Below, piece after piece: positions 7,935 through 44,776 of a DNA stretch of 64,000 bases. How positions within the stretch are numbered: the first letter of the stretch is position 1; the number at the start of each line of letters is the position of its first letter. A model generated the notes under the pieces. That model searched no databases and had not been told where the DNA came from. It saw only the letters and a program-made list of their open reading frames with translations. The position numbers and the translations under genes were made by a program. Source of the stretch: Squalus acanthias. Taxonomy: Eukaryota. The stretch covers positions 372,001 to 436,000 of the forward strand of contig JASTWF010000110.1 in the NCBI GenBank assembly GCA_030390025.1, given 5' to 3'.

Positions 7935-8379
7935 ATATACTAGAAGTACGGGAAATAAAATAACTGATGAAAATAAAATTGTTGGTGAATTTAAAGAGAT
8001 TTATTTCCCTGCACATAGTGAGCTCCAGGCCGCCCCGATACCATGGTAACGGGACATCGAGCAGGACTGAATGAAATGGAGGAAGAGTTTCTCATGTGAT
8101 GCAGAGCTTGGGTTTGCAGCGAAAGTGCCCAGAACAAAGTGGCAAAATTATTTCAAAATAAAGATTATCAGATTGTTAGCAAAGAAATGTAAAAATCTCA
8201 CATTTAAAATAATAAATTTAGCCTTTAGGTTAATATTGTTTCTTCAAAAACAGCTCGAGTGGGTGTGTTTGAGGTATCAGTAAAATAACTGGCAGAGTGT
8301 GGAGACCGACAGAGGCCTGGGCCCGGGTCCATCTCCATCTCTCGCCATCTCCATCTCTCTCTATCTCCAGCCTCAGCCA

Positions 8380-24934: not shown

Positions 24935-25093
24935 TCAGCTCAGGCGCTTCCCCCTCTCCCCCTTCTGTACAAAAGCATAGACGCTCTCTAGAGGGCCCTC
25001 TCTCGTGTCGGGTGCTGGTGCTGGTGGGTTTCTGGACTCAGGCCACTGTAGAAGGGATTACATGAGCTCACCATTCGTTGTCGACTCCCGACC
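24935..25093 (-). CDS. Exon 5: terminal cytoplasmic exon with two ITIM-like positions, interrupted by in-frame TAA at 25060-25058
   Basis: Acceptor ccttttctgttctgtgcag, phase 0; reads GRESTTNGELM*SLLQWPESRNPPAPAPDTREGPLESVYAFVQKGERGKRLS* (final TGA 24937-24935). Confidence 0.75.
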
Positions 25094-25304
25094 CTGCACA
25101 GAACAGAAAAGGGCAGCTTAGAAAATGTGAAAGTAAAAAGGCCGAGAAAACTGTTGAAAAGGCACAACAGGGCAGTCAGCGTCTAAAGCGGGAAAGATAG
25201 GTTACTGCTTCAGTTAACGTTTCATCTTTCAGAACCTCGGATGTGGAAAGTTTTCCGACAAACGGGTGCAAAATGGCTCAGCTTTTGTCTGTCTGTGCCT
25301 GTGA

Positions 25305-25872
25305 GAAACATTCGGAACAGGAGGAGGCCAGTCAGCCCCTCGAGCCTGCTCCACAAATTTAGTTAGATCATGGCTGATCTGCACCTCAACTCCAATTCGG
25401 TCGATACCCTTACCCAACAATAATCTATCGATCTCCGTCTTGAAAGCTCCAATCGTCCCCCAGCAACCACAGCCTTTTGGGGGAGAGAGTTCCAGAATTC
25501 TACTACCCTGTGTGTGAAACAGTGCTCCCTGATTTAATTCCTCAACGGCCTGCCTCTAATTTTAAGATTATGTCCCCTCGTTCTTGATTCTCCCCACCAG
25601 AGGAAGTAGTTTCTCTATATCTTCCCTACCGAATCCATTTATCATTTTAAAGACTTCAATCAGATCTACCCCAGAGAGCTGTGGAGGCGGAGTCATTGAA
25701 TGTAGTCAAGGCAGAGATAGACATATATTTGAGCTACAGGGGAGTCGAGGGTTATGGACAGCAGGCGGGAAAGTGGCGCTGAGGCCAAGATCAGATCAGC
25801 CATGATCTTATTGAATGGCGGGGCAGGCTCAAGGGGCCAAATGGCCTAATCCTGCTCCTGTTTCTTATGTTC
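25305..25872. mobile_element. Two CR1 3' fragments back to back (minus 25305-25660, plus 25665-25872)
   Basis: CR1 3' UTR motifs on opposite strands. Confidence 0.75.
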
Positions 25873-26139
25873 AGCCCTCAATCTTCTATACGTGAAGGAG
25901 AGTTGGATGTCCGGATTTTCCGTTGCAGCGTTCCTGGTACCACCAAGAGTGCATTTTGGAAAATTCTGCAACCTCCGACCTGTGATTTTCCAACCAACAA
26001 TTGCAATGGCCAGAAAACCATAGGCTGATAGCGCAGAATTCCCGGGGAGTGTCCCAGGAGTGCTGAAGTAGAGCATCTGGTCCAGATAGGCTACAGAAAC
26101 CAAGTTAAAGACCTGCGCACCATCAAGAACCATTGAGGT

Positions 26140-26580
26140 TTACAGCACAGGAGGAGGCCATTCAGCCCCTCATGCCTGTGCTGGCTCTTTTGAAAGAGCG
26201 GTCCAATTAGTTCCACTCCCCCGCTTTTCCCCCATAGCCCTGCAAATCTTTCCTTTTCAAGTATATATCCAATTCCCTTTTGAAAGTCACTATTTAATAT
26301 TGCTTCCAGTGCCCTTTCAGGCAGGGCATTCCAGTGCAAAACAACTTGCTGCATACAAAGAATTTCTGCTCATCTCCCCTCTGGTTCTTTTGCCAATTAT
26401 CTTAAATCTGTGTCCTCTGGTTGCCGCCCCTCCCACCAGTGTAAACAGTTTCTCCTTACTTATGCTATGGAAACCCCATATAATTTTGAACGCCTCCATT
26501 AAATCTCCCCTTAACCTTCTCTGCTCCAAGGACAACAATCCCAGCTTCTCTAGTCTGTCCACATAACTGAAGTCCCTCAT
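26140..26580 (-). mobile_element. CR1 3' fragment
   Basis: SYVDRLEKLGLLSLEQRRLRGDL...TRGHRFK. Confidence 0.85.
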
Positions 26581-26982
26581 CCACAATTCTCCAGGCGTTA
26601 TCCCGGTACTGGTAACTGGAAAAAAAAAAGGCATTTGGGATTGGTTTATTTCATCTGGACCGTCTCATAGTAAGTCAGACATGTGTGGGCGGAATTTTAA
26701 CCAAAGTTGCCGAGCGGGACTCACACGAGATCGGGTGGAACATCAGTTTTACACCCCGCCCAATATTACTCTCCACTGACTTCAACAGGGAGCAAAATCG
26801 AGTGGGGTATAAAACCAACATTGCTCCCAGTCCCGTCAGCTTCCCGATGGGCGGGTTAGGTTAAAATTGCCCCTTAGGAGAATCGGGCCCCCGCGGGGAG
26901 GAAGGGTCACATTTGCCGAAATTGATATTGTTTATTTTTTTGACAAGGCATCTCGACTCCGGCTAACCCACTCCCTTCTTAC

Positions 26983-27062
26983 CTCAGCCAAGTCCTGCCT
27001 CGTTCCTTCCATTGGCGGAACAGACGCTTCCATGGCAACTGAATCGTGTCGTGGGCGACAAC
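26983..27062 (-). CDS. Exon 4: first cytoplasmic exon
   Basis: Acceptor gttttaattcag, 80 nt, phase 1-0, donor GAG/gtaaga; reads GCRPRHDSVAMEASVPPMEGTRQDLAE in frame with exon 3. Confidence 0.75.
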
Positions 27063-27639
27063 CTGAATTAAAACATGCAGACAGGAAGAGAATTTCTTGC
27101 ATCACGTGTGAATGATGAAACTTCAAAGCTATTTAAAGCGTGATAAAGACACTACTGTATAAGGAGACGGCAGAAACAGACAACAGCACGACCCCGCTAA
27201 TACTTTTTAATTGGTCACCGCAAGCTCCAATTTTGTATTCGGTAATTGGACTTATGTTAATTTCTTTCAGCTAAGGAGAGTATCACCTGAGAAACTGACC
27301 AGTTATCAATTACAGACACCAAAGCCCCAATCCCTGGCTTTACATGGACAGTTAAAAGTTAAAAATTTGTCCGATATAAAGAAGTGAGACAAAGTCCAGC
27401 CAGACTGCAAGAACTTCCATGAGGTCCAATAAAGAATTTGGTGCAAACTCTGTTAAACATTTTCTAAGATCCGTTGTGCATACATTGTTTGAAGACATAC
27501 CACAATTGGAGAGAATTCAGATATCCCATAATTATAGCTTAATGTTCCCTGCCAACTATCTTTGCTGGTGTAATTCTTCTGCAGCAATTTTTCAGTAGCA
27601 GTGCCACACACTTTGTAAATGTGCAAACCCATCGTGCCT

Positions 27640-27845
27640 AGTAGTGTAAATCAATAGTTCACATCCCGTAGTTGTGCAAATCAATGGTTCATGTCCAGTC
27701 GTGGTGTACATCAACAGTTTGCACCCAGTAGTGGTGCAAATAAATAGTTCATATCTAGTCATCGTGCAAATCAATGGTTTGTGTGGAGTAGTCATGTAAT
27801 CCAATGGTTCATGTCCAGTAGTCATGTAAATCAATGGTTCATGTC
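27640..27845. repeat. Degenerate 30-bp tandem repeat, about 7 copies
   Basis: Consensus gtagtcatgtaaatcaatggttcatgtcca. Confidence 0.8.
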
Positions 27846-28134
27846 TATTCTGTTTTGTTTAGTTTAGAATGGTTAAGGTCTCCCTTCAACTAACAGATAG
27901 AGGACTATCTTACCAATGCCCTAAGTGTTCATTCCCCTAATATCCAAAACCGTAATTTCAAGGCTTCTCTCTCATTTCTTTAAGACTCACTCCCCCTACC
28001 TACAAGCCCAAGATACAACGCATCGGTCTATCATTGAATGCCAGCTCACACTGAAGTGTATTAGCTGGTGGCCACTGGTGAAATGAGGCAGATCACTAAC
28101 TGCACCGGTAGTTAAACCACCACAGCATCTGTTC

Positions 28135-28440
28135 AACAACAACAACTTGTATTCATATAGCGTCTTTAATGCAGTAAAACATCCCCAGGGGCTTCACAGG
28201 AGTGTTATAAAACAAAATTTGACACCGAGTCACATAAGGAGATATTAGGACAGATGACCAAAAGCTTGGTCAAAGAGGTGGGTTTTAAGGAGCGCCTGCA
28301 AGGAGGAGAGAGAGGTAGAGAGGCGGAGAGGTTTAGGGAGGGAATTCCAGAGTTTAGGGCCTAGGCAGCTGAAGGCACGGCCACCAATGGTTGAGCGATT
28401 AAAATCGGGGATGCTCAAGAGGGCAGAATTCGAGGAGCGT
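28135..28440 (-). mobile_element. LINE2 3' end
   Basis: caacaacaacaacttgtattcatatagcg... antisense of the L2 tail at 7090-7390. Confidence 0.85.
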
Positions 28441-29013
28441 GCAGTTGGTCCATGCGTTCATCGTTCAACATCAGTCCACTCTCAGACCATCATCCCGACC
28501 CTTCCTCCTTTCCTTATAGGTGTCGAGCTGGAAAGGGAGCCCTCTATCCCACCTAGTGACACTCAGGGAGCCAATGGGGAGAAGGGCATCCCGAGGAGCC
28601 GCATATCAGATGATCATCTGAGGTTGGAGTGAAGGACAGGAGGAGGATGGGGGCAGTGCAGGAGCTGAATGTCCCTCACTCCCCACCCCACGGGCTGAGT
28701 AAATGCTCCAGAATGGCAGTCGGCTCATTCGGTGACCTGACCTGTGACTTTAACTGTGGGCGATAGTGTAAAATCGGCAGTACTGAATTAGCTGCCCATT
28801 ATATGCCCTGACGATCTTCCTTTCCATTGAACTCAACAGAAGTGAAAATCGAACGGGAGGCCAATTTGATATCGTCCATTATAGACCATCACCCAAAGTT
28901 AAAATTAGCCCCATTTGACTAACTGGAGCCACGATTGGCACTTTCCGCCCCTCCGCAGTTTGCCAATAATCATTCACTGTGGTAAGTTCTACTCACCAAG
29001 AGCAGCCACTTAC

Positions 29014-29205
29014 CTCTGTGTGTTTTGGTCGCCAATAGGCACAAGCAGATGGCGAGGACAATGAGGAGGCACACAGCAGCAGGGACACCAATAGACATGG
29101 CAGCTGAAGGCACGGCCACCAATGGTTGAGCGATTAAAATCGGGGAGGGTGTTGTGTTGTTCTGTGTTGACCCTGAAACACTTGGGGCAGTAGGATTCTC
29201 GCTGT
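29014..29205 (-). CDS. Exon 3: Ser/Thr/Pro stalk plus transmembrane helix
   Basis: Acceptor gttttgttacag, 192 nt, phase 1-1, donor G/gtaagt. Reads DSENPTAPSVSGSTQNNTTPSPILIAQPLVAVPSAAMSIGVPAAVCLLIVLAICLCLLATKTHR: hydrophobic span followed by basic residues. Confidence 0.85.
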
Positions 29206-29413
29206 CTGTAACAAAACACTTGGATTATTCTAATAACTGGAGCCAAAACTGGAAATGACTAACAGTAGGCCTATTGGCAATGACATCATTTATAGTTAGA
29301 CCCTATTAACGTTGGAAAATTGGAGTTCATTCGGTTAAGTAAACACGGTGGGATGAAATTGGACATGGGCAGTGCGCAAAATGGGCAGTATCTCATCAGT
29401 AGCCCGTTATATC

Positions 29414-32400
29414 GTGCTGAGGACATCGTGGATAGCATGTTTAGGGAGTTGGTCACACCGCAGATAAAGGCTGCACAGGCAGGAAGGGAATGGGTGACCA
29501 CCAGGCAGAGTAGTAGGCACAGGCAGGTAGTGCAGGGGTCCCCTGTGGCCATCCCCCTCTCAAACAGATATACCGCTTTGGATATTGTTGGGGGAGATGG
29601 CTTATCGGGGGAAGGCAGTAGTAGCCAACTTCCTGGCACCGTGGGTGGTACTGCTGCACAGTATGGGAGGAAAAAGTGTGGGAGAGCTACAGTGATAGGG
29701 GATTCTATTGTAAGGAGAATAGATAGGCATTTCTGCAGCTGCAAACGAGACTCCAGGATGGTATGTTGCCTCCCTGGTGCAAGGGTCAAGGATGTCTTGG
29801 AGTGGCTGCAGGGCATTCTGGAGCTGTCGTGGTGCATATAGGTACCAACGATATAGGTAAAAAATGGGATGAGGTCCTAAAAGCTGAATATAGGGAGTTA
29901 GGTGGTAAATTAAAAGTAGGATCTCAAAGGTAGTAATCTCAGGATTGCTACCAGTGCCACATGCTAGTCAGAGTAGAAATAGAAGGATATTTCAGATGAA
30001 TACGTGGTGAGAGGAATGGTGCAAGGGGGAGGGATTCAAATTCCTGGGACATTGGAACAGGTTCTGGGGGAGGTGGGACCAGTACAAACTGGACGGTTTG
30101 CACCTGGGCAGGACCGGGACCAATGTCCTCGGGGGAGTGTTTGCTAGTGCTGTTGGGGAGGATTTAAACTAAAATGGCAGGGGGTTGGGAACCTGTGCAG
30201 GGAAACAGAGGAAAGGGAAGCAAGGATAGAAGCAAAAGACAGGAAGGAGAAAAGCAAAAGTGGAAGGCAGAGAAATTAAGGATGTAAATCAAACAGGGCC
30301 ACAGTAAATAATAATTCTAAAAAGACTAAGAGTGTTAAAAAAACAAGCCTGAAGGCTTTGTCTCTTAATGCAAGGAACATTTGTAATAAGGTGGATGAAT
30401 TAGCTGCGCAAATAGATGTAAACGGATATGATATAATTGGGATTACGGAGACATGGCTCCAGGGTGACCAAGGCTGGGAATTCAACATCCAGGGGTATTC
30501 AATATTCAGGAAGGACAGACAAAAAGGAAAAGGAGGTGGGGTAGCATTGCTGGTTAAAGAGGAGATTAACACAATAGTAAGGAAGGATATTAGCTCTGAT
30601 GATGTGGAATCTGTATGGGTAGAGCTGAGAAATACCAAGGGGCAGAAAATGTTAGTGGTAGTTATATACAGACCGCCAAACAGTAATGCTGAAGTTGGGG
30701 ATGGCATTAAACGGGCAATTAGAGACGCGTGCAATAAGGGCACAGCAGTTATCATGGGTGACTTTAATCTACATATAGGTTGGGCTAACCAAATTAGTAA
30801 CAATACTGTGGAGGAGGAATTCCTTGAGTGTATACGGGATAGTTTCCTGGACCAATATTTCAGGGAACCAACTAGAGATCAGGCCATCTTAGACTGGGTA
30901 TTATGTAATGAGAAAGGATTGATTAGCAATCTTGTTGTGCGAGTGTTTGCTAGTGCTGTTGGGGAGGGTTTAAACTAAAATGGCAGGGGGTTGGGAACCT
31001 GTGCAGGGAAAAAGAGGAAAGGGAAGCAAGGATAGAAGCAAAAGACAGGAAGGAGAAAAGCAAAAGTGGAAGGCAGAGAAATCAAGGATGTAAATCAAAC
31101 AGGGCCACAGTAAATAATAATTCTAAAAAGACTAAGGGGTAAAAATTCACTTGGTTGCGCCTCCCGTTAGCGCCTTAAGAGGGCGCTAATGGGGCGCAAA
31201 GCCGCTAACGCCCGGGCGCAGCGATGTTTGCGCCGCTCGAGAACTTAACTTGAGATTGTGCGGCGGCGCTAAAACTTACCGCTGCGACCACCTGCGCGCG
31301 CAGATTGTGACGTCATTCCATGGTGCAACGCCCTTGTGGCGCCCCGTAGCGGAAATTGAGTGGCGCCCCCTGCCTTACCGCCTGGCGCATCCAACGACCA
31401 GAAGACTGGAACGCTATCAATCGCTGTGGGGCTGGGGGGGGCGCTATTTAAAGGGGGCCTCTTCCTGTCTTTTATTGTTGGTGGCATTTTTGAACTACGC
31501 ATTCTGAGAGAGAGAGGGAGAGACTTCTGGAGAGATTCAACGTTGTGTGAAGGAGTTTTGGGTACTGAGCAGCACTTTGCAGGTTCATTTTGATTTGCCA
31601 TTCCTTGTATCGATTTAGCAGAGACTGTGGGAGCTGCACTCTGAGCTCTTTGCCTGGTACTCTCCATTGTTCTTTCCAGCACATTTGATGTGCAAGTCTC
31701 TCCAGGCCGAGATTCAAGGCAGCAATGAACAGGATGTGGATGGAAAGCAAGATTAACCATCCCCTTTAAGAACTGGCCCGTGCCATTGTGTGTGTGTTCC
31801 ATTGCTGACTGACATTACATGAGCTTCGCCAGCGCTCCGAGTTAGCGCCTCACTGCTCAGCCTTTGCGCCTTAAGAGAGGTGTGCAGCGCCTGCTTTAGC
31901 GCTCCACTCACCTCCCGGGGCGGTAAAAGTGAAGTTTCCTGTCAGTGCCGATAATTAGCGCCAGGCGCTAATATTTGCGTCCGGACGATATTTGCGCCCC
32001 AAATGGGGCGCGACCTAATTTCTACCCCTTTGTCTCTTAATGCAAGGAGCATTTGTAATAAGGTGGATGAATTAGCTGTGCAAATAGATGTAAACGGATA
32101 TGATATAATTGGGAATACGGAGACATGGCTCCAGGGTGACCAAGGCTGGGAATTCAACATCCAGGGGTATTCAATATTCAGGAAGGACAGACAAAAAGGA
32201 AAAGGAGGTGGGGTAGCATTGCTGGTTAAAGAGGAGATTAACACAATAGTAAGGAAGGATATTAGCTCTGATGATGTGGAATCTGTATGGGTAGAGCTCA
32301 GAAATACCAAGGGGCAGAAAACATTAGTGGGAGTTATATACAGACCCCCAAACAGTAATGCTGAAGTTGGGGATGGCATTAAATGGGAAATTAGAGACGC

Positions 32401-34900
32401 GTGCAATAAGGGCACAGCAGTTATCATGGGTGACTTTAATCTACATATAGGTTGGGCTAACCAAATTAGTAACAATACTGTGGAGGAGGAATTCCTAGAG
32501 TGTATACGGGATGGTTTCCTGGACCAATATGTCGAGGAACCAACTAGAGATCAGGCCATCTTAGACTGCGTATTATGTAATGACAAAGGATTAATTAGCA
32601 ATCTTGTTGTGCGAGGCCCCTTGGGGAGGAGCGATCATAATATGATAGAATTCTTCATTAAGATGGAGAGTGAAGTAGTTGACTCAGGGACTAGGGTCCT
32701 GAATTTAATTTAAGGAAACTACGATAGTATGAGGCGCGAGTTGGCTAGATTGGATTGGGGAACGTTTCTTAAAGGGTTGACGGTGGACAGCCAATGGCAA
32801 ACATTTAAAGATCGCATTGATGAACTGCAGAACTTGTTCATCCCTGTCTGGCATAAAAATAAAACAAAAAAGGTGGCGCAACCGTGGCTAACAAGGGAAA
32901 TTAGGGATAGCATAAGATCCAAGGAGAGGACATATAAATTGGCCAGAAAAAGCAGCAAACCTGAGGATTGGGAGCAGCTTAGGATTCAGCAAAGGAGGAG
33001 AAAGGGATTAATTAAGAGGGGGAAAATAGAGGATGAGAGTAAGCTTGCAGGGAACATAAAAACTGACTGTAAAACCTTCTATAGATATGTGAAGAGAAAA
33101 AGATTGGTGAAGTCAAGCATAGGTCCCTTGCAGTCAGAATCAGGGGAATTTATAATGGGGAACAAAGAAATGGAGGACCAATTAAATACATACTTTGGTT
33201 CTGTCTTCACAAAGGAGGACACAAATAACCTCCCAGAGATGTCGGGGAACATAGGGTCTAATGAGAGGGAGGAACTGAATGCAATCAGTATTTGTAGGGA
33301 AATGGTGTTAGGGAAATTGACGGGATTGAAGGCCGATAAATGCCCAGGGCCTGATAATCTACATCCTAGGGTACTTAAGGAAGTGGCCCTAGAAATAGTA
33401 GATGCATTACTGGTCATCTTCCAAAATTCTATAGACTCTGGCACAGTTCCTATGGATTGGAGGGTAGCTAATGTAACCCCACTATTTAAAAAAGGTGGTA
33501 GAGAGAAAACGGGGAATTATAGACCGACATCGGTAGTGGGGAAAATGCTAGAATCCATTATAAAAGATGTAATAACAGAGCACTTGGAAAACAGTGACAG
33601 GATCGAACAAAGTCGACATGGATTTACAAAAGGTAAATCGTGCTTGACTGATCTACTGGAATTTTTTGAGGATGTAACTGGTAGAATAGATAAGGGAGAA
33701 CCAGTGGATGTGGTGTATTTGGACTTTCAGAAGGCTTTTGATAAGGTTCCGCATAAGAGATTAGCATGCAAAGTTAAAGCACATGGGATTGGGGGTAAGA
33801 TACTGACTTGGATAGAGAACTGGTTGGCAGGCAGGAAGCAAAGTGTTGGAATAAACGGGTCTTTTTCCGAGTGGCAGGCAGTGACTAGTGGGGTACCACA
33901 GGGATTGGTGCTAGGACCCCAGCTATTCACAATATATATTAATGATCTGGACGAGGGTACTAGATGTAATATCTCCAAGTTTGCAGACGACACAAAGCTG
34001 GGTGGGCGTGTGTGCTGGGAGGAGGATGCAGAGAAACTCCAGTATGATTTGGACAGGTTGGGTGATTGGGCAGATGCATGGCAGATGCAGTATAATGTGG
34101 ATAAATGCGAGGTTATCCACTTTGGTGGCAAAAACAGGAAGGCAGATTATTATCTGAACGGCAATAGATTGGGAGAAGGGGAAGTGCAACGAGCCTGGGT
34201 GTCCTTGTGCACCAGTCGCTGAAGGTAAGCATGCAGGTGCAGCAGGCGGTTAAGAAGGCAAATGGTATGTTGGCCTTCATAGCGAGAGGATTCGAGTACA
34301 GGAGCAAGGATGTCTTGCTGCAGTTGTACAAGGTCTTGGTGAGACCACACCTTGAGTATTGTGTGCAGTTTTGGTCGCCTTATCTGAGGAAGGATGTTCT
34401 TGCCATGGAGGGAGTGCAGCGAAGATTCACCAGACTGATACCTGGGATGGCATGAATGACGTATGAGGAGAGATTGGGTCGATTGGGCTTATATTCGCTG
34501 GAGTTTAGAAGAATGAGAGGGGATCTCATTGAAACTTATAAAATTCTAACAGGACTAGACAGACTAGATGCAGGAAGGATGTTCCCGATGGCGGGGGAGT
34601 CCAGAACCAGGGGTCACAGTCTAAGGATAAGGGGTAAGCCATTTAGGACTGAGATGAGGAGGAATTTCTTCACCCAGAGAGTGGTGAACCTGTGGAATTC
34701 TCTACCACAGAAGGCAGTTGAGGCCAATTCATTAAATATATTCAAGAAGGAGTTTGATATATTTCTTAAGGCTAAAGGGATCAAGGGATATGGGGAGAAA
34801 GCAGGAACAGGGTACTGAATTTGGATGATCAGCCATGATCTCATTAAATGGCAGAGCAGGCTCGAGGGGCTGAATGGCCTACTCCTGCTCCTATCTTCTG
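29414..34900 (+). mobile_element. Near full-length CR1 (ORF1 SGNH esterase, ORF2 APE endonuclease + RT) with internal duplication and MITE
   Basis: ORF1 VIGDSIVR...VCCLPGARVKD; endonuclease LNARS, GITETWL, MGDFN, SDH; RT 32729-34222; same young family as 1-2406 and 62056-64000. Confidence 0.95.
31136..32028. mobile_element. GC-rich Harbinger-type MITE (family B relative)
   Basis: TIRs ggggtaaaaatt / aatttctacccc; left end is reverse-complement similar to 9590-9663; about 27 bp of host CR1 is missing at the site and no TSD is visible. Confidence 0.8.
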
Positions 34901-34934
34901 TTATATGCCCGATACTCAGTGCTGTTGACTTTAA

Positions 34935-36155
34935 TTGCACCTTCCCCAGTGCCTCTATATCCTTTTTATAATACAGAGACCAGATCTGTTCACTGTACTC
35001 CAAGTGTGGTCTAACCAAGGTTCTATACATGTTTAACATAATTTCTCTGCTTTTCCATTCTATCCCTCTCGGAATGAGCCCCAGTGCTTTGTTTGCTTTT
35101 TTATGGCCTTATTAACCTGTGTTGCTACTTTTAGTGATCTGTGTATCTGTACCCACAGATCACTCTGCTCTGCTACCCCATTTCAACACTTATTTTCCAA
35201 GCAGTATGTGGCCTCCTTATTCTTCCCACCAAAATATATTACCTCGCACTTATCTATATTGAAGTTCATTTGCCAATTACACGCCCATTCTGCAAGTTTA
35301 TTAATGTGTTCCTGTATTTTGTCGCAGTCCTCCTCTACATTAACTATACCCTCAATTTGGTGTCATCCACAAATTTTGAAATTTTACTTCTGATTCCAAA
35401 TCGTTTATGTAAATGGTGAACAACAGTGGTCCCAGCACCGATCCTTGTAGAACACCACTTCGTCTGAGCAACTACCTTAAACCCCTATTCTCTGTTTTCT
35501 GTTTTGTAACCAGCTTGCTATCCATTCTGCTACCTGTCCCCTGACTCCACTGTTCTGACTTTAATCATGAGTCTACTATGCGATACAAAACCTTGGTTAG
35601 ATCACACCTGGAGTACTGTGAGCAATTCTGTGCACCACACCTTAGGAAGGATATATTGGCCTCAGAGGGAGTGCAGCGTAGGTTTAGCAGAATGATACCC
35701 GGACTTCAAGGGTTAAGTTATGAGGATAGATTACACAAATTAGGGTTGTATTCCCTGGAATTTAGACGGTTAAGGGGTGATCTGATCGAAGTTTTCAGGA
35801 TATTAAGGGGAACAAATAGGGCAAATAGAGAGAAACTATTTCCGCTGGTTGGGGTTTCTAAGACTAGGGGGCATAGTCTAAAAATTAGAGCCAGACCTTT
35901 CAGGAGTGAAATTAGGAAACACTTCGACATACAAAGGGTGGTAGAAGTTTGGAACTCTCTTCCGCAAATGGCAATTGATGCTGGGTCAATTGTTAATTTC
36001 AAATCAGAGATTGAAAGCTTTTTGTTAACCAAAGGTATTAAGAGATATGGGCCAAAGGCGGGTATATGGAGTTAGATCACAGATCAGCCATGATCTCATT
36101 GAATGACGGAACAGGCTCGAGGGGCTGAATGGCCTCCTCCTGTTCCTATGTTCCT
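34935..36155. mobile_element. CR1 fragments: minus 34935-35578, plus 35580-36155
   Basis: RPHLEY motif on both strands; the plus copy ends in ttcctatgttcct. Confidence 0.85.
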
Positions 36156-36239
36156 AATCAAAGGCCTTTTGGAAATTTAAATAGTTAAATGAATTCTCCT
36201 GTATCCCATGAGCTAAATAATCAGACTGTGAATTCCTAC

Positions 36240-36629
36240 CTGTCCCGGAATAGACTGTTAACGTCACATTGCCTTTACTGGCTGTGTCCCCAGCACTGCA
36301 AACAGTTATCACATACACGCCGCTGTCACTGGGCTCCAGATCCCGCAGCAACAAGGATCCATTCTCTGGGTAGATGTGGACTCTCCCTCTGTGGGAAGGA
36401 GCGACCCGCTGGTAATCTGAACAGGTATAACCGGGTCTGTCAGGGTCTGGAGAGCAGTTTGATCGGGTCAGTATCACTAATGGAGTGTCTCCGGGGAATA
36501 AAGTCCACTCTATCCTTAAAGTGGAGTAGGGAGTGGGTGTGGAGTAGGAGCCAAGGAGAAGGACAGACTGGTTCACGGTCCCGTTCACTTCTCTCTGACC
36601 GACGCTCACAGTAACATTGCTTCCAGAGG
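36240..36629 (-). CDS. Exon 2: Ig V-set domain, HEPACAM/CEACAM-N/CD2-like (no B-F disulfide)
   Basis: Acceptor ttttattttgttgcag, 390 nt, phase 1-1, donor G/gtagga. Translation has V-frame hallmarks VNGTVNQSVLL, IEW, RGRVHIYPENGSLLLRDLEPSDSGVYVITV, NVTLTV; several N-glycosylation sequons. Confidence 0.92.
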
Positions 36630-36999
36630 CTGCAACAAAATAAAAAAAATAAATGAGTTTCCAATCACATTATGCAGTGTTATCCCATCAGTAAGTTAAA
36701 TTCTAAACACCCGGCTTTTCAGAAAGAGAAACAGAGAAGGTCCGAGACAGTCAGAAGGTCAGGCAGCGTCGGTGGAGAGATCGCGAGTCAGTCGCCGTTT
36801 CAGCTATTGACCCTGCCTCATGACTGAGAGATATTACAGATAGTACAGCACTTAAAAAGGAACAGCACAAAGGAAGGAGGAGAGGGGGGGGAAACACAAT
36901 AACCCACACACAGGAAAAGTAATAGAATCAGTATTGCCAACCTCACCGCCTCATAATTCAAGAGACAAACTCTTAAAAAAAATTAAAATCTGACTTGGG

Positions 37000-37570
37000 T
37001 GTCTGCCTCAACCGTCCTTTCATGCAGTGAGTTCCAGACCCCACCACCCTCTGGGTGAAAAAAGTTCTCCCCAACTCCCCTCTAATCCTTCTACCAATTA
37101 CTTTAAATCTGTGCCCCTTGGTTATTGACCTCTCTGCTAAGGGAAATAGGTCCTTCCTATCCACTCTATCTAGGCCCCTCATAATTTTATACACCTCACT
37201 TAAGTCTCCCCTCGGCCTCCTCTGTTCCAAAGAAAACAACCCCAGCCTATCCAATCTTTCCTCATAGCTAAAATTCTCCAGTCCTGGCATCTTTCTTGTA
37301 AATCTCCTCTGCACCCTCTCTAGTGCAATCGCATCTTTCCTGTAATGTGGTGACCAGAACTGCACGCAGTATTCTAGCTGCGGCCTAACTAATGTTTTAT
37401 ACAGTTCAAGCATAACCTCCCTGCGCTTATATTCTATGCCTCGGCTAATAAAGGAAAGTATCCTGTATGTCTTCTTAACCACCTTATCTAACTGTCCTGC
37501 TACCTTCAGGGATCTGTGGACATGCACTCCAAGGTCAATCTCTCCCGCTACACGTCTCAGTATCCTGCCA
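37000..37570 (-). mobile_element. CR1 ORF2 3' fragment
   Basis: RPQLEYCVQFWSPHYRKD...RGDL. Confidence 0.9.
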
Positions 37571-37594
37571 TTGTATACATAATTTTTAAAAGGA

Positions 37595-37863
37595 GGTCCG
37601 CTGATGCAATGTTTTCTGGCAGTTTTAAATTCCATTCACACGGTCATTGCTATTAAACAACAGAAAACCAACCATTGTGTTATACTGTATCATGGCATCC
37701 CTAAGTTGTTTTGGAAATAAGTGATTAGATATTACATTTTAAGCATTTAGGTTGGGATGCGGGGTGGAGGTTTTGGTTGCGATGCGCATTAAGGAACTTT
37801 CTGGCCGATTAATAACGGTGTGGATCGTTTGCACGCCGTTATTTTTTTGGTAGGTTCTGGCCC
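37595..37863. mobile_element. Family X terminal fragment
   Basis: Reverse complement of 47914-48190; ends ttctggccc. Confidence 0.65.
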
Positions 37864-37899
37864 GTTATCCTTTGACTGTTATTGCACATTTTGCTACAT

Positions 37900-38555
37900 C
37901 TAGCCCAAAGCCCCTTTATTTCTCGAATAGAGATCTAATGGAGAGTGCTCCAGATCTCCACGACCCTTTGTGTGGGAAAAGTGCTTCCTGATTTCCCTCC
38001 TGAGTGGCCAAGCTCCAATTTAAAGCTTGTGCCCCCTTGTTCTGGATTTCCCCACCAGAGGAAATTGTTCCTCTCTATCTAATCCCTTTTTTCATTTTAA
38101 AGACCCCAATTAGATCACCTCTCACGTGTAAACTCAAGGGAATACAAATAAAGTTTATGCAACTTTTATGATGACTTTTTGTACCTGTGTCCTAGACTTT
38201 CGTGATTTGTGTACCTGGATACACAAAGCTCTTTTCTTAAGGTAGGGTGTCATTAGAATCATAGAATCATAGAATGGTTACAGCACAGAAGGAGGCCATT
38301 CAGCCCGTTGAGCCCGTGCCGGCTCTCTGCAAGAGCACTTTAGCTAGTCCCAATCCCCCGCCCTTTTCCCATAGCCCTGCAATTTTTTTCACTTCAGCTA
38401 CTTAACCAATTCCCTTTTGAAAGCCATGATTTCCGGCAGTGCATTGCAGATCCTAACCACTCGCTGAGTATAATAGTTTTTCCTCATGTCACCTTTGGTT
38501 CTTTTGCCAATCACTTTAAATCTGTGTCCTCTGGTTCTCAACCCTTCCGCCATTT
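37900..38555 (-). mobile_element. Degraded CR1 3' fragments (two)
   Basis: tagaatcatagaatcatagaat tail and antisense CR1 3' ORF2 sequence. Confidence 0.7.
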
Positions 38556-40621
38556 AACTCAGAAAAGAAAAATCTTGCATTTATATCGGTCCTTTCACAC
38601 CCAAATCCCATTAGTTTGAAATCACAAAATACCTGCAATTTCATCATAGAATAATGAAGTGAGAATTTACATTAATACGTGCCTTTATCTCCTCGGCGTG
38701 TCCCCAAACATTTTCTCTACAGAACAATGACTGCACAGAACAAAGAGAAAGACTGCAGGGAGGACAGCCACAATGCAGACCAAGGCACCACAAGGCTCAG
38801 AAGGCTGTCCAAGGCTGGGGTGGGGGGGGGGCGCAATAGAAATGTGGTAGTAACAGGGGACTCTATAATTAGGGGGATAGATAACATCCTCTGCAGCCAT
38901 GAACGAGAATCCCGAAGGGTGTGTTGCCTACCTGGTGCTAGGGTAAGGGATATCTCACGGCGGCTGAAGAGGAACTTGGAAAGGGAGGGGGTAAATCCAG
39001 TTGTCGTGGTCCATGTTGGAACAAACGATATAAGTAGGAACAGGGAGGATGTCCTGCTGAAAGAGTATCAGGAGCTAGGATCTAAATTAAAGAGCAGGAC
39101 CTCGAGGGTAATAATATTACCTGAGCCACGTGCAAATTGGTATACAAGCAGACAGATCAGGAAAATTAACACGTGGCTAAAGGGCTGGTGTGGGAAAGAG
39201 GGGTTATTTTTCATGGGACACTGGCACCAGTTCTGGGAGAGGAAGGAGCTGTACCGATAGGGTCCACCTGAACCGGGATAGGACCCGTGTCCTAGCGGAA
39301 AGGGTAAATAGAGAGATGGAAAAGGTTTAAGCTGCTAAGATGGGGGGAGGGATCTATAAGAAATGTAACCAGCCTAAATATAAACAAAACAAGAAAAGAG
39401 AGCATAGGAAAGAATAAAGTAAGGGAGAACATTGATGGCAAGGGAATAGATAGAGTTCTTAAACAGGAGTCTAAAAAGGTGGTTAAACATAAAGTGAGAG
39501 GAAATCCTATTAAAAATGAGTTAAACTGTTTGTACAGCAATGCACACAGTGTCCGTAATAATACAGGGGAGCTGGAGGCAATCATGCATTGCGAGGAACC
39601 AGACATAGTAGGGATTACTGAGACATGGCTACAGAAAAATCAGGACTGGGAATTAAACATTGCAGGGTATAACATATTTAGAAAAGATAGAGAGGGAAAA
39701 GGGGAAGGTGGAGTAGCTGTACTTACTAGAGATAACATGATGGCAGTAGAAAAAAGGGATGCAGAGTTCAGTAAGACAAAAATAGAATCCATATGGATAG
39801 AGATAAAAGATAATAAAGGATCAATCACACTAATAGGTGTAGTCTACAGACCACCTAATAGTGGAAGGGAGGTGGAGGAAGAAATATGCAGATAAATTAG
39901 GGAAATTAATAAAAAACATAGAATAATAATCATGGGGGATTTCAACTACCCCGATATTAATTCGACAGAAGAGGTAGGTAAAGAGGATAAGGGAATGGAG
40001 TTCCTACAATGTCTACAGGACTCCTTGCTAACCCAATATGTAAAAAGCCCAACAAGGGAGGATTCGCTATTGGTTCTAGTAATGGGGAATGAACCAGAGC
40101 AGATAAGAGAAGTAAAAGTAGGGGAACATATAGGCAATAGTGACCGTAATATAATACGCTTTAAGATGATAATTGAGAAGGACATAAGTATGACAAAACC
40201 AGGGTAATAGATTGGAGAAAAGCTGATTTTGAGGGGCTGAGAATAGAACTTCGGGAAAAAATGGGCAACAATATTAGCAAACAACAATGTAGAACAGCAA
40301 TGGGAAACATTTAAAGCGGTGTTCAACAGAGTGCAGGAAAAATATATTCGGCTAAAAGGAAAAAACAAACTAAACAATAATGAGACTCCATGGATGAATA
40401 AAGCCATAATTGAACAATTGAGAGTAAGGAAAGAGGCATAGATTAAGTACATAGACAGCAGGGGAGTGCAAGATAAGTGAGAATACAAAAAGATTAGGAG
40501 AGAAGTAAAGAAAAAAACAATTTGGGAGGCAAAGAGGAATTATGAAATTAAATTATCAAGGAACATAAAACAAAATAGTAAAATATTTTATCGGCACATC
40601 AATAAAAAAAGGAAGGTTGGG

Positions 40622-40712
40622 ATGGGAATAGGGCCATTAAGGGATAGGAATAGGGCCATTAAGGGATAGGAATAGGGTCATTAAGGGATAGGAATAGGGC
40701 CATTAAGGAATA
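40622..40712. repeat. 22-bp tandem repeat x4 inside CR1
   Basis: ggaatagggccattaagggata. Confidence 0.9.
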
Positions 40713-40758
40713 GATAGGATAATAGCACAGGTAACGATAGAGAGATGTCAGAAATATT

Positions 40759-41440
40759 GGGCCAGAAATTCGGCTGTTGTCGGGTGAGTACGCGCCGTGT
40801 ACTCACCCGTAAGGCCACCTGAAGTGCCGGTTTCCTGCATGCACTGCGCATGTATGGGAAACCGGAACTTCCGTTCCCCTGAAGGGAGGGGTTCAGAAGT
40901 CGAATGCGTGCACGGGAGAGGCTGCGCGCACGCAGCGAACTTCAGGTTTTTTTTCAGGTTTCTCCGGGAAGGTAAGTATGAAGAAGCTGCGCTTTTAAAA
41001 AGGAGGTGCAAGGCCTGTTTTTAACAAGGTAAGTGGTTAATTAATTACAATTTAAACATTTTTTCAACAGGTTTATCTTTTTTAGATACTTTAAAGAAAG
41101 GTAAGTTTATTTTTAGCAGCGTTAAAAAGTATAATTCATTTTTGTTTAAAATAGTTAATTTATTTAACTTATAGTTATTTAAAAAATGTGATTAAAAAAT
41201 TTTTTTATTTGAAGTTTAAGAAAATGCCCTGCTAGGATTGGCTCTCCATGGCCCACGTGATCCCAGGGGACACTTCGAACTAACTGCGCCCCTGGGATAC
41301 ACAAGCTCTGTACACCGGCAGCTGCAGTAGGCCCAGGACCCAAAGTCCTCGTGGGCCCAAAGCACAACTGCAGGCGCGGTAGGCAAGTACACGGGCAATG
41401 CTTGCACCCGCAGGAAGCCGGAAAGCCGAATTTCTGGCCC
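40759..41440 (+). mobile_element. Harbinger-type MITE (family A)
   Basis: TIRs gggccagaaattcggc / gccgaatttctggccc; flanks ATT/ATA. Confidence 0.88.
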
Positions 41441-43239
41441 ATAATAATTATTTTGATTCAGTATTTACCAGGGAGATAGAACAGGTGGATATGACATTGG
41501 ATGATGAGATTAGTAATGAGATAAGTGCATTTAAAATAAAAAAGGGGCTATATTAAATAAACTAATCAAACTTAAAAGAGGATATAACCCCTGGTCCGGA
41601 AGGACTGCATCCACGCATTTTAAAAGAATCTAGGGAAGAGATAGCAGAGGCATTACTACAGATATTTAATAATTCATTAGAAAAAGGTGCAGTGGCATTG
41701 GACTGGCGGATAGCTAACGTAATACTGATATTTAAGAAGGGCGATAGAACATGTCCAGGGAATTATAGACCAGTCAGCTTAATATCGGTGGTAGGAAAAA
41801 TAATGGAATCCCTACTAAAGGAGAAAATAGAAGAACATCTAGAAACCAAAAATATAATAAACAATAGTCAGCATGGATTTCAACAGGGAAAGTCTTGCTT
41901 GACCAACCTTATTGAATTTTTTGAAGAGGTAACAGAGAGAGTAGACAATGGTAATGCAGTAGATGTAATTTATCTAGATTTTCAAAAGGCCTTCGATAAG
42001 GTACCCCATAATAGACTGATGAACAATGTCAGAGAATGAGGAGTCAGGGCACATGTAGCAGAATGGATTGCTCGCTGGCATCACGACAGAAAGCATAGAG
42101 TAGGAGTAAAAGGTAGCTATATGCAGTGGCAGAAGGTGGGTAGTGGTGTTCCACAAGGATCAGTGCTGGGACCACTGCTGTTCACAATTAACATTCACGA
42201 TTTAAACTTTGGAATCAAAAACACAATTTCTAAATTTGCGGATGACACCAAATTGGCGGGGGGGGGGGGATAGTCAATACTGAGGAGGACTGCAACAAAT
42301 TACAGGAGGACATTAATAAACTTGCAGAATGGGCATAAATTGGCAAATGAATTTCAACACAGATAAATGTGAGGTATTACATTTTGGTAGGAAGAATAGG
42401 GAGGTCACCTATCACTTGCAGGGTGCGAGTGTATGTGGGGTAGAGGAACAAAGAGATCTCGGAGTACAAATACACAAATCACTAAAAGTAGCGACACAGG
42501 TTAGCAAGGCCATAAAAAAGCAAACCAAGCACTAGGGTTTATTTCCAGAGGTATAGAATTGAAAAGTAGGGAAGTTATGCTAAACCTGTATCAAACCTTG
42601 ATTAGACCACACTTGGAGTACTGCGTACAGTTTGGTCGTCATATTATAAAAAGGATATAGAGGCACTGGAGAGGCTGCAGGGAAGTTTTACAAGGATGAT
42701 ACCAGAAATGCGAGGGTATACATATCAGGAAAGGATGAGCAGGCTGGGTCTCTTTTCTCTTGAAAAAAGGCGGAGGGGTGACCTAATAGAGGTCTTTAAA
42801 ATTATGAAAGGTTTTGATAGAGTGGATACAGAGAGAATGTTTCTACTTGTGGGGAAGAGAATAACTAAATGCCATCAATATAAGATATTCACCAAGAAAT
42901 CCAATAAGGAATTCAGAAGAAACTTCTTTACCCAAAGAGTGACGAGAATGTGGAACTCGCTACTTCAGGGAGTGGTTGAACAAATAGTATAGATGCATTT
43001 AAGGGGAGGCTGGACAAACATATGCGGGAGAAGGGAATAGAGGGTTATGCTGATAGATTTAGATGAGGAAAGACGGGAGGAGGCTCGTGTGGAGCATAAA
43101 TGCCAGCATGGACTGGTTGGGCCGAATGGCCTGTTTCTGTGCCGTATATCCTATGTAATCCTATGTAATCCTATGTACACTTCAAAAATAGTAACTGCAG
43201 CAAACACCACAACCAATTTGGCCACAAACTGCAAACTAA

Positions 43240-43752
43240 AAAAAGACTTGCATTTATACAGCGCTTTTCACAACCTCAGGATGTCCAAAGCACTTTACAG
43301 CCAATGAAGTAATTTTTGAAGTGTAGGCACTGTTGTAATCTAGGAAAGGCAGCAGCAATTTCGCACACAGCAAGCTCCCACAAACAGTAATGTGATAATG
43401 GCCAGATAATCTGTTTTTAGTGAAGTTGGTTGAGGGATAACATTGGCCAGGACACCGGGGAGAACTCCCCTGCTCTTCTTCAAAATTGTGCCGTGGGATC
43501 TCTTACATCCACCAGAGAGAGCAGACGGTTTAACGTTTCATCCAAAAGACGGCACCTCTGACAATGCAGCGCTCCCTCAGCACTGCACTGGAGTGTCAGC
43601 CTGGATTTTGTGCTCAAGTCTCTGGAGTGGGATTGTGAACCTTCTGACTCGGAAGCGAGTCATAGAGTCATACGGCACAGAAGGAGGTCAATCAGCCCAT
43701 CGAGTCTGTGCCGGATTCGATGGTGCTACCAACTGAGCCACGGCTGACACCT
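43240..43752 (-). mobile_element. Deu-domain SINE, full length
   Basis: Reverse complement of 45762-46236; ends aactgagccacggctgacac. Confidence 0.82.
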
Positions 43753-43885
43753 GAAATGAGATAAGTGACCATCTAGCCTGTTCTGGAGGCTTTGGTTGAA
43801 GGATGAATTCTGGCTAGTTCACTGGAGAATGCTCGGCCTTATCTTTGAGTAGTTCCTCGGGATCTTTTAACTTCACTTGAAGAGG

Positions 43886-44228
43886 TAGAGGAAGACTCCA
43901 CAGTATAGAAGAAGACCCCACAGTGTGGAGGACGACCCCACAGTGTGGAGGAAGACCCCACAGTGTGGAGGAAGACCCCACAGTGTGGAGGAAGACCCCA
44001 CAGTGTGGAGGAAGACCCCACAGTGTAGAGGAAGACCCCACAGTGTAGAGGAAGACCCCACAGTGTAGAGGAAAACTCCACAGTGTAGTGGAAGACCCCA
44101 CAGTGTAGAGGAAGACCCCACAGTGTAGAGGAAGTCCCCACAGTGTAGAGGAAAACTCCACAGTGTAGTGGAAGACCCCACAGTGTAGAGGAAGCCGCCA
44201 CAGTGTAGAGGAAGACTCCACAGTGTAG
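43886..44228. repeat. 20-bp minisatellite, about 17 copies, inside a degraded Deu-SINE (43760-44305, minus)
   Basis: Unit gaagaccccacagtgt(a/g)gag; flanks continue as SINE (gggatctttta... / cagtgtagcactccctcagtactg). Confidence 0.93.
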
Positions 44229-44703
44229 CACTCCCTCAGTACTGAATTATCAGCCCAGATGATGTGCTCAAATCCTGGGTGAACCCACAATCTTCTGACT
44301 CAAAAATACCTGTTCCAACTGATGCAAGTTAACACAGTTATACATTTTAACACAGCACAGCCCAGAACATCTGACACATTAGTAATGAAATAACAATTGA
44401 ATAAAGACTTGTGAGAGATCAATGAATTGATTACTCAGTCCCAGCTACAGTTAGAGGTTCAGGTAACTCACAGTGTGGGACAGTAACTGGAGGGCAGATG
44501 GTGAGCGGGAATCTACCTGTTCACAGGAGCCCGACTGAATGAGACTGAAGATCTCCGGGAATGAGCTGAGCTTCATTCACTTTAGATCAGTGAGTGATTG
44601 AACCCCAGCCCCGATTAAACACAGTCAGCAGAAGTCACACAGAGTCAGGGGGAACTCAGAAATAGAATTACATTTATACTGGAAGTGAAAGAAAACAACT
44701 TAC

Positions 44704-44776
44704 CGGAGAGGGAGATAAAATAACTGATGAGAGGGAAAATGTTGGCGAATTGAAACAGATTTATTTCCCTGCCCAT
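44704..44776 (-). CDS. Exon 1 (signal peptide) of a single-V-domain Ig-superfamily receptor
   Basis: ATG at 44776; 73 nt = MGREINLFQFANIFPLISYFISLS + 1 nt, followed by perfect donor gtaagt (44703-44698). Phase 1 joins in frame to the V exon (...ISLS-A-SGSNVT...). Confidence 0.7.

What the first reader, a model, noticed from the sequence alone, without database searches (positions are those of the whole stretch)
24935..44776. Hidden five-exon gene for a single-V-domain, ITIM-type receptor (HEPACAM/CEACAM-like)
Seen: five GT-AG exons with compatible phases (1,1,1,0) scattered among TEs give leader, V domain, stalk/TM and a tail with tyrosine-motif positions. Intron 2 is almost entirely CR1, so no C2-domain exon appears to be present. 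Known: HEPACAM and inhibitory CEACAM1 normally carry extra C2 domains, whereas single-V plus ITIM layouts typify inhibitory immune receptors such as PD-1, CD300 and PILR. Inference: a lineage-specific chondrichthyan inhibitory receptor family member built on a HEPACAM-like V domain.
Basis: partly seen in the sequence, partly recalled or inferred. Interest (0 to 1): 0.75.

Follow-up and report, generated by a model that had tools for sequence, protein, structure and literature searches.

The report
Switch-less copy of shark paired receptor
This is a real five-exon shark cell-surface receptor gene, but a stop codon removes its off-switch; it is a recent duplicate in an unnamed cluster that pairs one intact, likely braking, receptor with five short, likely activating, look-alikes, and related receptors occur in rays, amphibians, turtles, birds and platypus.

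Summary
The five exons are real (minus strand, GT-AG, phases 1,1,1,0) and match single-V orthologues across sharks and rays. But in this copy the first ITIM tyrosine codon is TAA (25060-25058), so the frame ends at 256 aa, before both tyrosine motifs. It is one arm of a 95-97% identical inverted duplication; the other arm (copy B, about 280 kb away) keeps both motifs. Between them lie nine short leader-V(-TM) units, five intact, with 80-90% identical V domains, an arginine at the top of the membrane helix and a tail of a few residues: the layout of FcR-gamma-coupled activating receptors. V domains of long- and short-tailed forms group by species in 9 of 9 other species pairs, and near-identity is confined to the V exon: a paired-receptor signature. 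Relatives occur in chimaera, gar, lungfish, amphibians, turtles, alligator, birds and platypus, so only the subfamily is elasmobranch-specific. It is not HEPACAM, PD-1 or CD300. I found no paper on the family; the scan had not noted this sequence before, though it noted other paired families in this genome. Expression, ligand and signalling are untested.

The parts
44704..44776 (-). Exon 1, leader (ATG at 44776), phase-1 donor
   Evidence: 98% identical region in copy B; orthologue hits
36240..36629 (-). Exon 2, single Ig V domain without the B-F disulfide; conserved extra Cys pair (V residues 58 and 69) on the C' and C'' strands
   Evidence: Pfam V-set E 2.6e-08; alignment of 60; model pLDDT 91; V-fold matches Z 14-17
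29413..34900 (+). About 5.5-kb CR1-rich insertion in intron 2, absent from copy B
   Evidence: break in the A/B alignment; RT frames
29014..29205 (-). Exon 3, stalk and uncharged transmembrane helix
   Evidence: hydropathy 3.0 over 19 residues
29099..29146 (-). 48-nt LINE-derived patch replacing 24 nt of the stalk, in frame; specific to this copy
   Evidence: 48 of 48 identical to 28411-28364, 47 of 48 to the matching element of copy B; alignment
28364..28411 (-). Part of a LINE 3' fragment in intron 3, likely the template of the patch in exon 3
   Evidence: the label L2-like is recalled, not from a call
26983..27062 (-). Exon 4, membrane-proximal tail; identical to copy B
25058..25093 (-). 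Exon 5, coding part, ending in the premature TAA (25060-25058) at the first ITIM tyrosine
24935..25057 (-). Former tail, now behind the stop: second motif SVYAFV (24985-24968), a 2-nt deletion that removed the old stop, next TGA at 24937-24935

Best explanation
The window gene is a recent duplicate of the long-tailed member of a shark paired-receptor cluster that carries a stop codon at its first ITIM tyrosine, so it would make a surface receptor that likely still binds but cannot signal. Shown: exon structure, the stop, the intact twin (copy B) and five intact short genes with near-identical V domains, a membrane arginine and a tail of a few residues. Inferred from known paired receptors: copy B recruits SHP-1/SHP-2 through its two tyrosine motifs and brakes leukocytes; the short forms pair through the arginine with the aspartates of the FcR-gamma dimer and activate; gene conversion limited to the V exon keeps both types tuned to the same ligand, probably one that pathogens exploit. 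Because the stop lies in the last exon the message should escape nonsense-mediated decay, and the 256-aa product (43-residue tail, no tyrosine) would act as a signal-null decoy or dampener, or simply be a duplicate in early decay.
For: Stop and lost motifs. Intact splice sites and 979 of 1000 upstream bases shared with B. Copy B and inverted duplication. Short genes, 5 of 9 units intact. Same short arginine form in catshark, two bamboo sharks and skate, three of them on the same chromosome record as a long form. V domains group by species in 9 of 9 other species pairs, 7 with starred support; V identity 89-98% within versus 62-73% between species. DNA identity of short gene 502 to A/B is 94-96% over about 450 nt (V exon plus about 30 nt each side), 88% at the leader and 72-75% in intron patches, as described for Xenopus ceacam pairs (PMC5112662, passages). 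An FcR-gamma membrane exon with its aspartate is in this genome. Arginine at the top of the helix couples CD89, NKp30 and NKp46 to FcR-gamma/zeta (PMC13107469, passages).
Against: The stop rests on the assembly alone. This copy carries odd private changes (48-nt patch, unpaired Cys at V residue 110, LG for PV at V residues 25-26) that fit decay. Its open frame up to the stop is not more than chance: from A/B intron divergence I estimate about 1.3 disabling hits expected, none seen, P about 0.3. Diversifying selection is not shown: mean pN 0.061 versus pS 0.048, bootstrap 21% for pN<=pS; variable sites on the C-C'-C''-F-G side 27 of 42, p 0.14. The short forms lack the NxxR motif of LRC activating receptors (PMC6557307, passages). 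Only 1 of 7 bird short forms has the arginine inside the hydrophobic stretch. The second motif ends in Ala in most shark orthologues, off the ITIM/ITSM consensus.
Confidence: 0.6

Rival explanations
1. The window copy is already a dead pseudogene (silent, or its protein misfolds); the cluster works through copy B and the five short genes.
For: Three private lesions in exons 3 and 5 and unusual V substitutions; 4 of 9 short units beside it are broken, so turnover is fast; the open frame is not significant (P about 0.3, my arithmetic).
Against: Start, all eight splice ends and 98% of the upstream kilobase are intact; exon 4 is identical to B and the patch kept the frame.
Confidence: 0.25
2. One reading: the TAA is an assembly error or a rare allele, and the gene is a second working ITIM receptor.
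For: The rest of exon 5 still reads in frame through the second motif; the base was not checked against reads.
Against: A second lesion behind the stop (2-nt deletion removing the old stop) and a Thr-to-Met change just before it; a substitution, not a homopolymer slip.
Confidence: 0.1
3. The family is a HEPACAM/VSTM5-like adhesion family with no immune switching role.
For: Some relatives carry automatic HEPACAM-like names; VSTM5 and HEPACAM clusters are the nearest predicted structures in the Atlas, TM by query only 0.36-0.45.
Against: No C2 domain; conserved ITIM-type motif in the long forms and arginine-TM short forms; species-wise V homogenisation; rapid gene birth and death.
Confidence: 0.05

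Closest known systems
Paired CEACAM receptors (human CEACAM1/CEACAM3; Xenopus ceacam pairs, PMC5112662, passages read)
   Same: N-terminal V domain without the B-F disulfide, with the Arg-Asp pair; gene conversion limited to the V exon; genes in both orientations; profile match to CEACAM N domains E 1e-8.
   Different: No C2 domains; activation predicted through a membrane arginine rather than an own ITAM; extra C'-C'' cysteine pair; chicken has a homologue (LOC771657) although fowl lack intact CEACAM genes (PMC13278318, passages).
FcR-gamma-coupled paired receptors: LILRA/LILRB, PIR-A/B, CD89, NKp46, chicken CHIR (PMC13107469, PMC6557307, passages; PIR and CHIR recalled)
   Same: Arginine at the top of the membrane helix and a very short tail in one form, ITIM tail in the other.
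   Different: Those have C2-type domains (recalled) and an NxxR motif; here one V domain and LLLR.
Single-V inhibitory or paired receptors PD-1, TIGIT, CD300, PILR (features recalled)
   Same: One V domain, stalk, TM, two tyrosine motifs; V fold (TIGIT, PILR among matches).
   Different: They have the canonical B-F disulfide, absent here in all 60 aligned rows; sequence identity 17-23%.
HEPACAM, HEPACAM2, VSTM5, CD2/SLAM (features recalled)
   Same: Disulfide-less N-terminal V domain; nearest Atlas structures; CD48 match E 1.5e-5.
   Different: HEPACAM and SLAM have a C2 domain; VSTM5 has no ITIM and no short arginine partner.
Uncharacterised RefSeq genes of the same family, e.g. Scyliorhinus canicula LOC119975690/LOC119976513, Hemiscyllium LOC132832807/LOC132832679, chicken LOC771657, platypus LOC114812814
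   Same: Predicted proteins already exist in databases.
   Different: Annotated as uncharacterised; no paper found that names them or describes the pairing.

Membership tests
Inhibitory ITIM receptor (window copy) | ITIM (I/L/V/S)xYxx(L/V) in the translated tail | tested here: not met
   Frame stops at the tyrosine codon; 43-residue tail has no Tyr
Inhibitory ITIM receptor (copy B) | ITIM in the translated tail, uncharged TM | tested here: met
   LTYSML and SVYAFV, 285-aa open frame
Paired immune receptors | Clustered genes with near-identical ectodomains and opposite tail types | tested here: met
Paired immune receptors | Ectodomains homogenised within species | tested here: met
   9 of 9 species pairs are sisters, 7 starred; identity confined to the V exon
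Paired immune receptors | Opposite signalling on leukocytes and a shared ligand | not testable with these tools
   needs cells and ligand
Paired immune receptors | Diversifying selection on the binding face | tested here: inconclusive
   pN/pS about 1.3, bootstrap 21%; site clustering p 0.14
FcR-gamma-coupled activating receptors (short genes) | Arginine near the N-terminal end of the TM helix and short motif-free tail | tested here: met
   5 of 5 intact short genes
LRC activating receptors (LILRA, CD89) | NxxR motif in the TM | tested here: not met
   LLLR or PLLR versus PMC6557307 passage
HEPACAM orthologue | V plus C2 ectodomain (recalled) | tested here: not met
   no C2 exon in either intron 2; only V-set in orthologues
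HEPACAM orthologue | Groups with true HEPACAM in a tree; conserved neighbours | not tested
   no verified HEPACAM sequence came from a tool
CEACAM | N domain without B-F disulfide, Arg-Asp pair | tested here: met
   R82 nearly invariant, D101 invariant, no B or F Cys; feature from PMC4079198 passage
CEACAM | Locus beside LIPE/BCL3/ATP1A3 | tested here: inconclusive
   LIPE is on another unplaced contig, C3472; neighbours seen are TRIM, CALHM and V+C2 genes (25 frames scanned)
CEACAM1 | C2 (A/B) domains | tested here: not met
PD-1, TIGIT, CD300, PILR | Canonical B-F disulfide (recalled) | tested here: not met
   Leu at the B position, no Cys after DxGxY
CD2/SLAM | V plus C2 ectodomain (recalled) | tested here: not met

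The most novel reading that the evidence does not exclude
An undescribed paired immune-receptor family as old as jawed vertebrates: one disulfide-less V domain joined either to an ITIM/ITSM tail or to an FcR-gamma-binding arginine helix, kept from sharks to birds and platypus, homogenised by V-exon gene conversion in each lineage, and apparently missing from marsupials and placentals; the window copy would be a third, signal-null decoy type made by a single stop codon.
Probability: 0.3. Interest if true: 0.72.

Novelty: new member of a known kind. Interest (0 to 1): 0.5.

Why it matters
Paired receptors mark old host-pathogen conflicts. This cluster gives a compact, testable case in sharks with all stages side by side: an intact brake, five predicted activators, broken copies and a brake that has just lost its switch. 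The same pairing in birds points to a family that comparative immunology seems to have overlooked, and the chicken gene makes the ligand and cell type testable in a laboratory species. For annotation, it shows that the window gene should not be called an ITIM receptor.

Tried and rejected
RNA: no RNA holder listed (five runs, RNA only a guess, at most 0.08 of the words). Contigs of X1 and X2 (one study) cover parts of the V exon at 93-97% identity and stop aligning at the donor 36240, one contig of X4 runs across it; none matches this copy, the partner exon is not shown, and exons 4 and 5 had no cover in four runs: no evidence either way. Complex prediction of a short gene's TM with the FcR-gamma TM dimer: no verdict. 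Synteny probes: TMLHE/BBOX-type hits on C3512 and C6, LIPE on C3472, MHC class II alpha on C3672 and C3751: uninformative, since C141 is unplaced. Fold searches give only a generic V fold, best amphioxus VCBP3 Z 17.4, rmsd 2.4, 124 aligned, 20% identity. Idea that the central leader-V units are variable first exons spliced to the shared tail, or secreted decoys: rejected once their own TM exons were found. Idea that A and B are two alleles: rejected (same contig, inverted, 3-5% apart, private multi-kb insertions). Positive selection not shown. Literature: eight searches found no paper on this family; most subscription papers are not in the library, and no supplements were read, where gene lists might name it. 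One row (P0046) failed to parse and was ignored.
Full report
Observation. The gene lies on the minus strand. Exons are 44776-44704 (leader), 36629-36240 (V), 29205-29014 (stalk and TM), 27062-26983 and 25093 onward, all with AG/GT ends and cumulative phases 1,1,1,0. The V exon passes Pfam V-set (E 2.6e-08) and folds as a V domain (pLDDT 91; best match Z 17.4). A search with it returned 24 proteins: 17 from sharks and rays at 50-75% identity, 6 named birds and 1 unnamed at 37-42%. The shark proteins hit all five exons in order. No C2 exon was found in intron 2, which is at least 5022 of 7034 nt CR1-like. So the hidden gene is real and far beyond chance.

The lesion. In exon 5 the codon of the first motif's tyrosine, invariant in 16 of 16 aligned homologues, is TAA (25060-25058). 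The spliced frame ends at 256 aa with a 43-residue tail without tyrosine. Exon 3 has a 48-nt patch in place of 24 nt, identical to a LINE fragment about 700 nt away in intron 3, most simply a local templated repair (inference). The stop was not checked against reads.

The cluster. The window is C141:372001-436000 of the own genome. The V exon has 12 matches on C141 (11 exons, one split by a frameshift) and 2 distant ones on C26. Exons 3-5 occur only twice: here (copy A) and in copy B at C141:675598-694450, plus strand, in an inverted duplication 95-97% identical. Copy B is intact, 285 aa, with LTYSML and SVYAFV. Between the arms are nine short units. Five (at 502, 507, 511, 515, 532 kb) are intact three-exon genes of 200-209 aa: leader, V, then a stalk, a helix beginning LLRV and a tail ending RRRYRAK; four are broken, and one more TM exon stands alone. 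Their V domains are 80-90% identical to A.

Pairing is old and maintained. The same short arginine form is in the small-spotted catshark, two bamboo sharks and little skate; for the first three it lies on the same chromosome record as a long form. In a tree of 49 V domains the long and short forms are sisters in 9 of 9 other species that have both (3 sharks, 6 birds; 7 with starred support), and all own copies form one clade (99/93). V identity is 89-98% within and 62-73% between species in the 14 comparisons made; DNA identity between short gene 502 and A/B is 94-96% only over the V exon plus about 30 nt each side, against 72-75% in intron patches. That is the pattern reported for Xenopus ceacam paired receptors (PMC5112662, passages). 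The genome encodes an FcR-gamma membrane segment with its aspartate (best PDB match FcR-gamma, E 9.7e-12). An arginine at the top of the helix is how CD89, NKp30 and NKp46 join FcR-gamma or zeta (PMC13107469, passages).

Range. A profile search of 1.84 billion representatives and naming of 30 of the best 150 added chimaera, rays, gar, lungfish, caecilian, salamanders, frogs, turtle, alligator and three platypus genes; long forms carry TxYxxI/V or ITIM-type motifs and many short forms a membrane arginine. Only 1 of 7 bird short forms has the arginine inside the hydrophobic stretch, so bird coupling is less clear. The window's subfamily is an elasmobranch clade (100/100); deeper branches are weak, a neighbouring V+C2 gene family falls inside the unrooted tree on a long branch, and no true outgroup was included, so one origin for the wider family is not tested. 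No marsupial, placental or teleost name appeared among the 30 named or the 120 listed, which is no proof of absence. From contig lengths I recall the tetrapod genes to be on chicken 4, platypus 6 and Xenopus 8, regions partly matching the human X; this is recalled, not tested.

How it most likely works. Shown: layouts, stop, pairing, V-exon homogenisation. Inferred: copy B brakes leukocytes through SHP phosphatases; short forms activate through FcR-gamma; conversion keeps the binding face shared. For the window copy, promoter-side DNA (979 of 1000 nt shared with B) and splice sites are intact and the stop is in the last exon, so a binding but silent receptor is the likeliest product (0.6). A dead pseudogene (0.25) is not excluded: from the intron divergence (410 mismatches and 30 gaps in 14,234 nt, half on each branch) I estimate about 1.3 disabling hits expected before the stop, so none seen has P about 0.3. 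Selection tests were inconclusive.

Comparison. It works like paired CEACAM or LILR/PIR receptors but fails membership tests for HEPACAM, CEACAM1 and SLAM (no C2), PD-1, TIGIT, CD300 and PILR (no B-F disulfide) and LRC activators (no NxxR; PMC6557307, passage). PDB sequence matches are weak and spread over JAML, CEACAM, CD48 and SCN4B. Fowl lack intact CEACAM genes (PMC13278318, passages) yet chicken has a homologue. Earlier CEACAM surveys cite only skate ESTs (PMC4079198, PMC3628338, passages); I could not check whether those belong here. Eight literature searches found no description of the family; other papers in the listings were seen as titles and abstract starts only. The scan holds no look-alike sequence but notes other paired families in this genome.

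Verdict. Observation partly confirmed, interpretation partly supported. A new, unnamed member of a known kind, paired immune receptors; the window gene is its switch-less duplicate. Interest 0.5.

Noticed in passing
window 8140-7950, minus strand: Orphan copy of the leader exon (ATG at 8016) whose donor is replaced by a repeat; no V exon follows in the 88 kb searched downstream.
   Followed up: partly
window 49088-49014, minus strand: Degenerate leader-like stretch 4.3 kb upstream of exon 1, also present in copy B.
   Followed up: partly
L050:4831-9577 (C141 357-361 kb, +); L074/L073 and L080/L079 (C141 793-784 kb and 846-840 kb, -): Three V+C2 Ig genes flank the cluster; orthologues are labelled HEPACAM-like or CEACAM1-like and lie on the same chromosomes, and on one 112-kb contig, as the receptor orthologues in four other sharks.
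   Followed up: partly
L063-L070 (C141 192-272 kb): RING/B-box/PRY-SPRY TRIM genes and a CALHM-family gene.
   Followed up: no
L013, L014, L081-L088 (C26 26.3 Mb and 28.5 Mb): Two distant paralogues; the first has an arginine in its TM exon and downstream tail exons with tyrosines. In three other species both subfamilies share a chromosome record, so C141 may belong with C26.
   Followed up: partly
window 54263-51651, minus strand: 871-aa open reverse-transcriptase frame with a GIY-YIG-like end (Penelope-like, label recalled) headed by a 24-nt tandem repeat.
   Followed up: no
L019, L020, L034, L056: Long gag/pol/env-like frames of retroelements between the arms and downstream; observed only.
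   Followed up: no
P0025, P0029, P0122, P0125, P0127: Bird and frog relatives with two to six tandem copies of the V domain; some may be annotation fusions of neighbouring genes.
   Followed up: no
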